This document shows, in pieces, positions 11,832 through 12,080 of a DNA stretch of 32,000 nucleotides; the stretch's first letter is position 1, and each line of letters begins with the position of its first letter. The DNA lies in the NCBI GenBank assembly GCA_041650175.1, contig JBAZLS010000003.1, forward strand, positions 39,917 to 71,916, read 5' to 3'. Below the pieces are notes generated by a model. It worked only from the letters and a program-made list of their open reading frames with translations. It was not told the origin of the DNA and did not search any database. The DNA comes from Minisyncoccota bacterium (GTDB taxonomy: Bacteria; Patescibacteriota; Minisyncoccia; Minisyncoccales; Minisyncoccaceae). The position numbers and the translations under genes are program-made.

Positions 11832-12004
11832 AAAATCTAATCGTAATGGTGCCCCGTGGGTAATGGGATTTGCCCTCATCACTTCTTGTTAGAAGTTCTT
11901 CAGGCCTGCTTTTGAACCAGTCGTTCAAAAGCTTCAAATCCCCCAATTACCAGTTTCGCTATTTTTAAAGCTTCATCATATTCAATTTCAAAATCTAATC
12001 GTAA
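11832..12004 (-). other. tRNA-Lys-linked structured module: inverted T-arm copy, conserved core, and a direct copy of the tRNA 3' end plus flank
   Basis: A 29-bp direct repeat (11832-11860 = 11990-12018) covers the last 14 nt of tRNA-Lys including CCA plus 15 nt of trailer. Inverted repeat GGTAATGGGATTTG (11859-11872) / CAAATCCCCCAATTACC (11935-11951). Hairpins at 11881-11896 (loop TGTT) and 11909-11930 (9-bp stem, loop CAGTC). AGGCCTG at 11902-11908. Confidence 0.7.
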
Positions 12005-12080
12005 TGGTGCCCCGTGGGGGATTTGAACCCTCGACCTTGAAGTTAAGAGCTTCCTGCTCTGCCAGCTGAGCTAACGGGGC
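12005..12080 (-). tRNA. tRNA-Lys (anticodon CUU)
   Basis: 76 nt on the minus strand. Acceptor GCCCCGT/ACGGGGC, D-arm GCTC-AGCTGGCA-GAGC, anticodon loop CUCUUAA, T-arm GAGGG-TTCAAAT-CCCCC, CCA encoded. Confidence 0.9.

What the first reader, a model, noticed from the sequence alone, without database searches (positions are those of the whole stretch)
11832..12018. Conserved structured module attached to tRNA 3' ends (family of three); tRNA-Lys copy
Immediately 3' of tRNA-Lys, tRNA-Arg and tRNA-Pro the same architecture recurs. Read on the minus strand, it has six parts. (a) A segment complementary to the host tRNA's own T-loop and 3' T-stem (GGGGGATTTGAAG for Lys, GGGGAATCGAAGG for Arg, GGGGGAGTCGAAGG for Pro). 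(b) A hairpin whose loop or apex carries GACTG. (c) CAGGCCT (CAGGCTT in Pro). (d) A 6-7 bp hairpin with a 4-nt loop (AACA, AGCA, AGTA). (e) A direct second copy of the tRNA T-arm and acceptor 3' strand. (f) In Lys and Arg, an exact copy of the trailer. Spacings are constant: AGGCCTG to CAGTC is 16-17 nt, and CAGTC to CTTC is 14-15 nt. In the Lys copy, parts (a) and (e) form a 14-bp helix, GGTAAT[TGG]GGGATTTG with CAAATCCC-ATTACC. A 5-nt insertion in the duplicated T-arm is mirrored in the inverted arm. The 29-bp direct repeat is 11832-11860 = 11990-12018. The fold is a closing helix plus two hairpins, ending in the single-stranded ...ACGGGGCACCA tail. This could be a tRNA-end-mimicking small RNA. 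It could also be a miniature mobile or integrative element that targets tRNA 3' ends and copies its target. I know of no described element with this layout. The unit sits directly upstream of the rpsO-pnp operon.
Basis: seen in the sequence. Interest (0 to 1): 0.75.

Follow-up and report, generated by a model that had tools for sequence, protein, structure and literature searches.

The report
Structured mini-element colonising tRNA gene tails
The three look-alike units behind tRNA-Lys, tRNA-Arg and tRNA-Pro belong to a large, undescribed family of ~80-base folded DNA/RNA modules that sit behind most tRNA genes in one small group of ultra-small (CPR) bacteria and borrow the neighbouring tRNA's own sequence to close their fold.

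Summary
The window holds three modules, against 0 expected by chance. A covariance model finds 57 distinct copies behind about 20 tRNA types, including the Ile and Ala tRNAs downstream of the 16S rRNA gene. All true copies come from one narrow Paceibacterota clade. Sister genomes with the same gene order, including Minisyncoccus archaeiphilus, have none, and no viral, phage, plasmid or Rfam match was found. The fold is a three-way junction of P1, a GWCUG-loop hairpin and an AGCA-loop hairpin. It is 93.5% paired, and 25 of 27 pairs show double changes. P1 is built from the neighbouring tRNA. The 5' arm is an inverted copy that starts exactly at T54. The 3' arm is a direct copy from C56. Both track T-loop differences between species. 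One 75-nt unit sits in the D-loop of a tRNA-Gly pseudogene and is missing from the orthologous copy. Hairpin halves are shared between loci, and units form tandem arrays. Best reading (about 0.5): a new non-coding, structure-dependent insertion/repeat element targeted to tRNA sequence and spread by recombination. Main rival (about 0.3): a host non-coding RNA. The CCA-tail tRNA mimic is not a general feature. The enzyme and any transcript remain unknown.

The parts
12005..12080 (-). tRNA-Lys(CTT), intact, with CCA encoded. Its T-loop, 3' T-stem and acceptor 3' strand are the sequence that the module copies.
   Evidence: ARAGORN; Rfam RF00005 at 60.7 bits.
11990..12018 (-). Direct repeat copy 1 (Lys): the tRNA 3' end from the T-stem onward plus 15 nt of trailer.
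   Evidence: 29 nt, 100% identical to 11832-11860.
11933..11951 (-). 5' arm (a) of the Lys module. TGGGGGATTTGAA is the inverted copy of tRNA positions 54-66. The upstream GGTAAT pairs with the ATTACC inserted in arm (e).
   Evidence: Inverted repeat I4, 13/13; extended P1 in the minimum-free-energy fold.
11908..11932 (-). P2 hairpin (Lys): 10-bp stem with loop GACUG.
   Evidence: Inverted repeat I6, 10/10; folds; covariation.
11872..11907 (-). J2/3 (CAGG) and P3 (Lys): basal helix GCCU/GGGC, a GA-rich internal loop, and a 6-bp hairpin with loop AACA.
   Evidence: Folds; covariation.
11832..11872 (-). 3' arm (e) of the Lys module: CAAATCCC (tRNA 56-63), then the ATTAC insertion, then direct repeat copy 2 (acceptor 3' strand, CCA and trailer).
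   Evidence: covariance-model hit at 11864-11944, 78.7 bits.
13080..13152 (-). tRNA-Arg(TCG).
12950..13034 (-). Arg module: arm (a) at 13023-13033, P2 at 12997-13022 (loop GACUG at 13007-13011), P3 at 12958-12994, and arm (e) starting at 12958.
   Evidence: Covariance-model hit, 89.6 bits, E = 1.7e-25; fold; inverted repeat I12.
12890..12958 (-). Arg direct repeat copy 2 (12899-12958): tRNA from C56, the trailer and an AT-rich terminator hairpin. It is followed by a partial extra arm AATCGAAGG (12890-12898).
   Evidence: 60 nt, 100% identical to 13039-13098; sequence.
21057..21128 (-). tRNA-Pro(CGG).
20908..20997 (-). Pro module: arm (a) at 20986-20997, P2 at 20960-20985 (loop GACUG), an AU-rich P3 (loop AGUA), and a degenerate arm (e) GACTCCCAACATCGGGG.
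   Evidence: Covariance-model hit at 20917-20997, 75.4 bits; inverted repeat I7 and direct repeat D3; fold.

Best explanation
It is a member of a previously undescribed family of small non-coding elements that depend on their fold and have colonised tRNA genes in one Paceibacterota clade.

Anatomy. The unit is about 75-85 nt. It has a 10-18-nt 5' arm, a hairpin P2 with loop GWCUG, a junction CCAGG, and a hairpin P3 with loop AGCA. The 5' arm is the reverse complement of the DNA that abuts the unit's 3' end. That DNA is almost always a copy of the neighbouring tRNA from C56 onward: T-loop, 3' T-stem, and variable lengths of acceptor strand and trailer. Arm and flank together close a three-way junction.

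Shown:
- The units behave as discrete insertions.
- They keep their fold through compensatory change.
- They stack into tandem arrays through the duplicated tRNA 3' segment.
- They swap hairpin halves between loci.
- Their arms follow the sequence of whichever tRNA they sit beside.

Inferred:
- Target choice works through base-pairing or short homology with the conserved T-arm.
- The adjacent tRNA gene, which is under strong selection, acts as the master copy in gene conversion of both arms.
- Any enzyme is supplied in trans and is unknown.
- The RNA is made passively, as part of tRNA or rRNA operon transcripts or terminator read-through.
- Locking the anti-tRNA arm into P1 keeps it from invading the tRNA.
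For: Family and distribution:
- There are three copies in the window against 0 expected.
- Covariance model R1 finds 66 hits, 57 of them distinct. They lie behind about 20 tRNA isoacceptors, and 80 of the 81 hits listed share the strand of the nearest tRNA.
- In the loci fetched for synteny, modules occur only next to tRNAs: 3 of 4 tRNAs in the window and none elsewhere in 32 kb.

Structure:
- 93.5% of cells are paired. Double changes occur in 17 of 27 pairs on a MAFFT alignment and in 25 of 27 pairs on the model alignment. No shuffle in 500 reached these values, and versions of the structure with the 3' partners shifted by 1-3 columns fall to 28-56% paired.
- AT-drifted copies (GC 0.25-0.28) still pair perfectly.

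Arms are derived from the target:
- The inverted copy starts exactly at T54 in 28 of 36 first modules. Its mean length is 11.4 nt (up to 18), against 5.6 for non-cognate tRNAs.
- T-loop, arm (a) and arm (e) vary together between orthologous loci. For Lys the T-loop is TTCAAAT in the window and TTCGAAT in L001 and L189. For Pro it is TTCGACT, TTCAATT and TTCAAGT.

Mobility and turnover:
- A 75-nt unit is inserted in the D-loop of a tRNA-Gly pseudogene in L195. The orthologous pseudogene in L130 lacks it. The new unit's 5' arm pairs at 11-12 of 13 positions with the anticodon arm downstream.
- The Arg(TCT)-His spacer is filled in L134 and empty in L159.
- There are no modules at the syntenic Lys and Arg sites in Minisyncoccus archaeiphilus or in L007.
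- P2 halves and P3 halves are shared independently between different tRNA loci, over 21-36 identical nt.
- Truncated and inverted cores exist.
- Tandem arrays of 1-4 units have periods of 100-180 bp.

Narrow range:
- True hits came from only 2 species genomes in the 185,579-species collection and from 3 metagenome samples.
Against: - No transposase, integrase, reverse transcriptase or HUH nuclease was found near any copy that was examined. Whole genomes could not be scanned.
- No autonomous parent element was found.
- The D-loop insertion shows no target-site duplication, so the classical MITE chemistry does not fit.
- Structure is kept at individual, apparently old, orthologous copies. Unpaired nucleotides (GAAG, GWCUG, AGCA, GA/GA) are conserved across species whose PNPase is only 82% identical. 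That pattern is what a host-selected RNA would show.
- Modules lie inside tRNA and rRNA operons, so they are probably transcribed.
- Tandem copy numbers come from short-read assemblies that break or collapse in these arrays. The contigs behind L003, L004, L137 and L138 all end in the Pro array. The difference of 1 versus 2 units between L001 and L002 could therefore be an assembly artefact.
Confidence: 0.5

Rival explanations
1. It is a host non-coding RNA family. The modules are genes for a structured RNA of about 85 nt, released from tRNA and rRNA operon transcripts by the tRNA-processing nucleases. Its closing helix presents, or masks, a copy of the tRNA T-arm. Possible roles include controlling tRNA maturation, or acting as a decoy or binding platform for a T-arm-binding factor.
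For: - Orientation is the same as the tRNA in all but one hit.
- Positions lie between tRNAs (Gly - module - Leu) and in 16S - Ile - module - Ala - module arrangements.
- The modules are GC-rich structured islands in a genome of about 32% GC.
- Covariation is very strong, and loop and junction nucleotides are conserved across at least 5 species.
- Copies that have drifted to AT-richness still pair.
- The folds have z-scores of -3.8 to -5.3.
Against: - The family is absent from sister genomes with identical synteny, so it is not an essential partner of tRNAs.
- Intrinsic-terminator hairpins often lie between the tRNA and the module: window Arg, L190 Ala, L134 Gly, L130 Pro and L158 Ser.
- G-U pairs are no more frequent than A-C mismatches in P2 and P3b (5 against 4 in 853 cells). 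That is unusual for an RNA under selection.
- Truncated, inverted and intragenic (pseudo-tRNA) copies exist.
- The acceptor/CCA tail is variable.
- The minimum-free-energy fold of the full tRNA-Lys plus module transcript has the arm invading the tRNA T-arm.
Confidence: 0.3
2. They are attachment-site scars or miniature integrative elements. The units would be the remains of elements, or cis-mobilisable mini-versions of them, that integrate into the T-loop of tRNA genes through a tyrosine integrase. The duplicated tRNA 3' end would be the displaced attR half.
For: - The direct repeat starts inside the T-loop (at C56) and runs through the tRNA 3' end into the trailer, as at tRNA-borne att sites.
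- A 4.5-kb defence island lies between tRNA-Ser(GCT) and its module array in L132, so these tRNA tails do receive foreign DNA.
Against: - No integrase lies next to any module that was examined.
- The units are 75-165 bp.
- In the copy, the T-loop lacks T54 and T55, so the presumed crossover region is not intact (alignment).
- An att scar explains neither the two covarying hairpins nor the inverted arm.
- The same clean internal boundary at more than 50 loci is not what independent deletions would leave.
- No match was found in viral, phage or plasmid collections.
Confidence: 0.08
3. They are independent local slippage duplications of tRNA 3' ends, and the shared motifs are coincidental.
For: Tandem arrays and perfect direct repeats show that local duplication does occur.
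Against: - The core motif is expected 0 times and is seen 3 times in the window.
- There are 57 distinct copies with a common fold and common loops.
- Identical hairpin halves occur at unrelated tRNA loci.
Confidence: 0.01

Closest known systems
Bacterial MITE-like small mobile sequences (Correia/NEMIS, RPE, ERIC, YPAL/RU-2), as reviewed in PMC2229807
   Same: Under 200 bp, non-coding and multi-copy. Ends are inverted repeats that fold into stable stem-loops. They are mostly intergenic, are transcribed with their neighbours, and no enzyme is encoded in the element. YPAL also inserts next to dyad symmetries and leaves variable duplications.
   Different: - Here the 'terminal inverted repeats' are not part of the element. 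They are copies of the neighbouring tRNA and change from locus to locus.
- The element is GC-rich, not AT-rich.
- It has no TA ends.
- The one cleanly resolved insertion has no short target-site duplication.
- Targets are almost exclusively tRNA sequence.
- Orientation is fixed relative to the tRNA.
REP/BIME elements with RAYT transposases, and hairpin-end derivatives of IS200/IS605 (from my own knowledge)
   Same: Short extragenic hairpins with conserved loop and foot nucleotides. Structure is conserved rather than sequence. They occur in clusters downstream of genes and are presumed to be handled as single-stranded hairpins by an enzyme acting in trans.
   Different: No GTAG-type motif, and no RAYT or TnpA gene was seen in the DNA examined. 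REPs are not built from their target's sequence and are not tied to tRNAs.
Genetic elements that integrate into the T-loop or 3' end of tRNA genes, and integrase-less cis-mobilisable derivatives (from my own knowledge)
   Same: The tRNA gene stays intact while a second copy of its 3' part, starting in the T-loop, lies on the far side of the insert. Tandem accretion occurs at the same tRNA.
   Different: The size is 75-165 bp instead of kilobases. There is no integrase. An added inverted copy of the target is present, along with two covarying hairpins, and T54-T55 are missing from the displaced copy.
Translocatable archaeal tRNA introns at non-canonical positions (PMC4390854, citing Fujishima et al. 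2010)
   Same: Small non-coding inserts with related sequences are found in different tRNA genes and at several positions. Here, cores lie in the D-loop and T-loop of tRNA-Gly pseudogenes.
   Different: The archaeal introns interrupt functional tRNAs and are removed at bulge-helix-bulge motifs by the splicing endonuclease. Here the functional tRNA is left intact, the interrupted copies are pseudogenes with truncated acceptor strands, and the host is a bacterium.
Double-hairpin elements and repetitive hairpin-forming elements of mitochondrial genomes (PMC2800124)
   Same: Tiny GC-rich inserts made of hairpins spread through an AT-rich compact genome. They are often near tRNA genes, and their mechanism is unknown.
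   Different: They occur in organelles, not bacteria. They have no closing helix templated on the target and no strict tie to tRNAs in position or orientation.

Membership tests
Any Rfam family (4227 models, including tRNA, tmRNA, ribozymes and Y RNA-like families) | A covariance-model match at or near the gathering score | tested here: not met
   Only the tRNAs and 16S rRNA reach threshold. In E-value mode up to 5-10, nothing falls on the modules except generic hairpin matches.
tRNA or tRNA-like pseudogene | A cloverleaf recognisable by ARAGORN or RF00005 | tested here: not met
   Neither tool calls a tRNA at any module. Only the T-loop, 3' T-stem and acceptor 3' strand are copied.
tRNA-integrating element (tyrosine integrase, T-loop class) | A direct repeat of the tRNA 3' part that starts in the T-arm and flanks the insert | tested here: met
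   Repeats run from C56 into the trailer, 6 to more than 39 nt long, and are 100% identical in window Lys (29 nt) and Arg (60 nt).
tRNA-integrating element (tyrosine integrase, T-loop class) | An integrase gene within the element, and an insert on the kilobase scale | tested here: not met
   The inserts are 75-165 bp. The neighbours are rpsO, pnp, a pilin-like protein, PlsY and YraN-like genes. The island in L132 carries no integrase.
MITE | Terminal inverted repeats that belong to the element, shared by all copies and related to an IS | tested here: not met
   The arms differ between loci and match the adjacent tRNA (mean 11.4 nt against 5.6 for non-cognate tRNAs). No parent IS was found.
MITE | A short target-site duplication of fixed length | tested here: not met
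   The D-loop insertion TTGGC|...|AGAGC has no duplication. At tRNA tails the duplicated segment is long and variable in length.
MITE | Multi-copy, under 200 bp, non-coding, with insertion polymorphism | tested here: met
   57 distinct copies, and filled versus empty orthologous sites.
REP/RAYT or IS200/IS605-derived hairpin elements | A cognate Y1 (HUH) transposase gene in the genome, and a conserved tetranucleotide at the foot of the hairpin | not testable with these tools
   Whole genomes of the clade could not be scanned for proteins. No such gene lies in the window neighbours that were examined.
Integron cassette array | An IntI integrase with attI, and cassettes bounded by attC hairpins with R/L boxes | not tested
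   The resemblance is only architectural. Exchangeable units are separated by imperfect inverted repeats, namely arm (e), trailer and the next arm (a).
Retron, DGR or other reverse-transcriptase-linked ncRNA | An adjacent reverse transcriptase gene | tested here: not met
   None of the genes flanking the three window modules has a reverse transcriptase domain.
Structured ncRNA gene (generic) | A conserved secondary structure supported by covariation | tested here: met
   The excess of G-U over A-C expected for an RNA is absent.
Structured ncRNA gene (generic) | A discrete transcript | not testable with these tools
   No expression data are available. Promoter and terminator scans were uninformative.

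The most novel reading that the evidence does not exclude
The module could be a guide-directed, self-targeting mobile element. Its 5' arm would base-pair with the strand it is about to enter, usually the T-loop and 3' T-stem of a tRNA or tRNA gene. The two hairpins would then stack the element's 3'-terminal G directly against C56, and joining would occur there. The catalyst could be the RNA itself, as in reverse splicing followed by reverse transcription, or an unknown single-strand nuclease or recombinase. P1 would then be the guide-target duplex preserved in the product. This would explain four things: the junctions fixed at 53/54 and 55/56, the arm that matches each new target, the D-loop insertion with a matching arm, and the tandem units that each carry a tRNA 3' half.
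Probability: 0.15. Interest if true: 0.9.

Novelty: new variant of a known kind. Interest (0 to 1): 0.7.

Why it matters
Small non-coding repeats are known from many bacteria, but I know of none whose closing helix is rebuilt from whichever gene it lands beside, and none that is devoted to tRNA genes.

- If the arms act as guides, this would be a minimal example (about 80 nt, with no protein encoded) of target recognition by base-pairing in a mobile element. It would sit in the same conceptual area as group II introns, IS110 bridge RNAs and the guide RNAs of TnpB-type IS200/IS605 nucleases.
- If it is instead a host RNA, it would be an abundant new RNA class tied to tRNA biogenesis, in a reduced-genome clade related to the archaeon-parasitising Minisyncoccus.
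- Either way it has practical consequences. It explains why assemblies of these genomes break at tRNA genes. It also creates tRNA pseudogenes and extra tRNA 3' fragments that can mislead annotation and the mapping of integration sites.

Tried and rejected
- Known RNA families: Rfam in gathering and permissive modes, on the window and on five sets of related loci, returned only tRNAs and 16S rRNA, plus generic hairpin matches to the tRNA-terminator-arm palindrome.
- Self-cleaving ribozymes: I checked hammerhead, twister, pistol and hatchet motifs by eye. No core consensus is present, and Rfam was negative.
- S15 autoregulatory leader: the Lys unit lies upstream of rpsO, but identical modules follow about 20 other tRNAs, so I rejected this.
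- A loose viral-contig pattern scan gave 120 hits. All were GC-rich coding DNA without hairpin complementarity. A stricter pattern gave one chance hit.
- blastn against phages and plasmids found nothing.
- Four of the ten genome-collection hits (Myxococcales, Udaeobacter, Paenibacillus, Synechococcus) have no tRNA nearby and lack the P2 stem pairing and the rest of the module when read in sequence, so I treat them as chance matches. They were not scanned with the covariance model.
- About 40 of the 66 metagenome hits gave no covariance-model match.
- An exact look-up of the window's S15 protein was not on record.
- Promoter and terminator consensus scans did not differ from shuffles and miss the AT-rich terminators that are visible by eye.
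- A pseudoknot between loop GACUG and junction CAG was rejected, because the GACAG loop variants show no compensating change (alignment).
- A kink-turn reading of the P2 internal loop was rejected: the strand lengths do not fit, and the Lys-type P2 has no internal loop.
- DGR-style adenine mutagenesis between repeats was rejected, because only a single A/G difference separates the two L002 units.
- I searched for the donor of the D-loop insertion among the 205 fetched loci and found none.
- Seven literature searches found no description of the element.
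Full report
**1. Checking the observation**

The window carries four tRNA genes on the minus strand: Lys(CTT) at 12005-12080, Arg(TCG) at 13080-13152, Pro(CGG) at 21057-21128 and Ala(CGC) at 21627-21698. Behind the first three, but not behind Ala, lies the motif GACTG-N7-13-CAGGCYT. It occurs three times, and 100 shuffles gave none.

For Lys, 29 nt at 11832-11860 equal 11990-12018. For Arg, 60 nt at 12899-12958 equal 13039-13098, and this repeat includes an AT-rich terminator hairpin. For Pro only a degenerate repeat remains.
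- The segment complementary to the T-loop and 3' T-stem is 13/13 for Lys and 10/10 for Arg and for Pro.
- Each unit folds into a closing helix (P1) plus two hairpins, with z-scores of -3.8 to -5.2. The extended 14-bp Lys helix is the minimum-free-energy structure.
- rpsO and pnp follow the Lys unit.

**2. The organism, and what relatives show**

The PNPase is 100% identical to a protein from a Candidatus Paceibacterota MAG and 79-80% identical to that of Minisyncoccus archaeiphilus. Syntenic contigs were fetched through PNPase homologues.

- In the relative at 89% identity (L001 and L002), tRNA-Lys and tRNA-Pro carry a module. tRNA-Arg keeps only the arm and a fragment.
- In the relative at 82% identity (L003 and L004), Lys has one module, Arg has two, and Pro has three tandem 100-nt units (start-to-start period).
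- In M. archaeiphilus (L005) and in L007, the gene order Arg - pilin - Lys - rpsO - pnp is the same, but there is no module and no arm.

The element is therefore restricted to one lineage and is not a universal companion of these tRNAs.

**3. Size and range of the family**

- A pattern scan of one genome per species (185,579 species) gave ten hits. The six true ones lie in two Paceibacterota MAGs, JBAYMT01 and JALOBW01.
- Twelve modules were aligned (A1) and a covariance model, R1, was built from them.
- A metagenome scan followed by R1 found modules only in contigs from three samples.
- Viral contigs, phage genomes and plasmids gave nothing.
- In all, R1 gave 66 hits, 57 of them distinct.
- They lie behind about 20 tRNA types: Lys, three Arg, two Pro, two Gly, three Ser, three Leu, two Ile, two Ala, Thr and Glu. 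This includes the arrangement 16S rRNA - tRNA-Ile - module - tRNA-Ala - module.
- 80 of the 81 hits listed share the strand of the nearest tRNA.
- In the loci that were fetched for synteny and not for the motif, modules occur only beside tRNAs.

**4. The fold is under selection**

- On the MAFFT alignment, 93.5% of cells pair and 17 of 27 pairs show changes on both sides.
- On the model-fitted alignment of 57 distinct copies, 25 of 27 pairs show such changes.
- No shuffle in 500 reached these values, and versions with the 3' partners shifted by 1-3 columns fall to 28-56% paired.
- The unpaired nucleotides are conserved: GAAG at junction 1/2, GWCUG in the P2 loop, CCAGG at junction 2/3, AGCA in the P3 loop, and GA...GA in the P3 internal loop.
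- Copies that have drifted to 25-28% GC still pair perfectly.
- One oddity stands out. In P2 and P3b, G-U pairs (5 of 853 cells) are no commoner than A-C mismatches (4 of 853). This is not what a typical RNA family shows. It fits whole hairpins being exchanged as units, or a constraint felt on both DNA strands.

**5. The closing helix is made from the neighbouring tRNA**

- In 28 of 36 first-in-line modules, the 5' arm is an inverted copy of the cognate tRNA that begins exactly at T54. It runs 9-18 nt toward the acceptor end. The mean is 11.4 nt, against 5.6 nt for non-cognate tRNAs.
- The 3' arm is a direct copy that starts at C56 or position 57 (alignment). T54 and T55 are absent from it.
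- The arm often matches the tRNA further than it matches its own 3' partner: 17/17 for L134 Gly and 18 nt for Ala and Ile.
- Where orthologous tRNAs differ in the T-loop, both arms differ in the same way. The Lys T-loop is TTCAAAT in the window and TTCGAAT in L001 and L189. The Pro T-loop is TTCGACT, TTCAATT and TTCAAGT in the three species.
- The acceptor strand and CCA are present in some copies and missing in others. The 'CCA-tailed tRNA mimic' is therefore not the common denominator.
- After the last unit of an array there is usually one more partial or complete arm. The tRNA 3' half, the trailer and the arm together form a long palindrome.

**6. Evidence that the units behave as insertions and recombine**

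- (a) In L195, a tRNA-Gly(CCC) pseudogene upstream of the intact gene carries a 75-nt unit between TTGGC and AGAGC of its D-loop. The orthologous pseudogene in L130 lacks it. Both share an older insertion after G53 in the T-loop. The D-loop unit has no target duplication, and its 5' arm pairs at 11-12 of 13 positions with the anticodon arm 7 nt downstream. I estimate the chance of such a match at about 0.002.
- (b) The Arg(TCT)-His spacer holds a variant module in L134 and is empty in L159.
- (c) P2 halves and P3 halves are shared independently between unrelated tRNA loci, over 21-36 identical nt. The breakpoints fall at the conserved junction motifs. A foreign core also sits between Lys-specific arms in the L189 array.
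- (d) Arrays end in truncated units, and one core is inverted behind its arm.
- (e) Tandem arrays of one to four units have periods of 100-180 bp. Contigs break in these arrays, so copy numbers from short-read assemblies are uncertain.

**7. Transcription**

- Some modules lie between tRNAs or directly after very short trailers, so they must be co-transcribed with the tRNAs.
- Others lie behind an intrinsic-terminator-like hairpin.
- No convincing promoter of their own was found.
- The minimum-free-energy fold of the whole tRNA-Lys plus module transcript pairs the arm with the tRNA T-arm, and pairs the tRNA 5' end with the second acceptor copy. Forming P1 may therefore matter for keeping the arm away from the tRNA. 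This last point is my inference.

**8. Interpretation**

The best-supported reading is a new family of non-coding insertion/repeat elements that depend on their fold and specialise on tRNA sequence.

- Shown: the units are discrete, they are present or absent at comparable sites, they are mosaic, they form arrays, their arms are derived from the target, and their fold is selected.
- Inferred: target choice works through pairing or short homology with the conserved T-arm. Gene conversion runs from the tRNA gene into both arms. The enzyme acts in trans.
- The main rival is a host ncRNA. It is favoured by the strength of structural conservation and by the location in operons. It is disfavoured by absence from sister genomes, by the intervening terminators, by the lack of G-U excess, and by the pseudogene, truncated and inverted copies.
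- Attachment-site scars of integrases explain the direct repeat but not the hairpins, the inverted arm or the size.
- Chance is excluded.

**9. Comparison with known systems**

The element resembles bacterial MITE-like small mobile sequences (PMC2229807), REP-type hairpin repeats, tRNA-integrating elements, translocatable archaeal tRNA introns (PMC4390854) and mitochondrial hairpin elements. It fails defining features of each, as set out in the membership table. I found no description of it in Rfam or in seven literature searches.

**10. Verdict**

The feature is real, it forms a large family within a narrow clade, and it appears to be undescribed. I file it as a new variant of the small structured repeat or insertion elements. 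The mechanism is unresolved, and a guide-directed insertion mechanism remains a non-negligible possibility.

Noticed in passing
L132:3010-7530 (JBAYMT010000001.1); related ends at L136:5150-5200 and L181:9150-9190: A 4.5-kb island lies between tRNA-Ser(GCT) and its module array. It encodes an HTH protein, a C-5 cytosine methylase, a LexA/S24-type repressor and an AbiV-like HEPN protein, and has no integrase. Its ends look like ~18-bp inverted repeats (GATGTCCAAGTTCGAACC ... GGTTCTAACTTGCGGACATC).
   Followed up: partly
L195:5752-5986 (-) and L130:7165-7330 (-): A second, dead copy of tRNA-Gly(CCC) lies upstream of the intact gene. It is interrupted after G53 by a module core in both genomes, and additionally in the D-loop in L195. 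Its acceptor 3' strand is truncated.
   Followed up: yes
L130:1860-1935: There are five tandem copies of the 16-mer AAAAGGTCCGACCTCC, downstream of the tRNA-Pro(GGG) module. They are unrelated to the module family.
   Followed up: no
window 12005-12080 versus L003:8700-8773, L005:9507-9580 and L007:8188-8261: The tRNA-Lys gene encodes its CCA end in the window and in L001. It does not in L003, M. archaeiphilus or L007. The module copy in L003 nevertheless reads ...GGGGCACCA.
   Followed up: partly
window 20908-20924: The displaced acceptor copy behind tRNA-Pro reads ACATCGGGG. This cannot pair with the present tRNA-Pro 5' strand CGGGATG, so the copy has either diverged or came from another tRNA-Pro.
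   Followed up: no
window 13191-14084, 14077-14751, 19789-20388 and 14773-18407: Three PlsY-like (PF02660) genes lie in the window, interleaved with FakA- and DegV-type fatty-acid kinase genes identified in the syntenic loci. The arrangement is conserved in all relatives examined. This is an unusual multiplicity for a reduced genome.
   Followed up: no
window 12086-12538: A 150-aa protein similar to a type IV secretion pilin (PF18895, TrbC/VirB2-like) is encoded between tRNA-Arg and tRNA-Lys. It is conserved in synteny as far as M. archaeiphilus.
   Followed up: no
L177:424-488 (-): One module core lies in inverted orientation directly behind a normal 5' arm. It is followed by a copy of the tRNA-Glu 3' end that lacks the T-loop part. 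This suggests inversion between the two arms.
   Followed up: partly
L136:5314-5469 and L003:7842-7945: Some modules carry 20-70-nt extra hairpins inserted in P3 or P2, or are chimeras of two modules.
   Followed up: no
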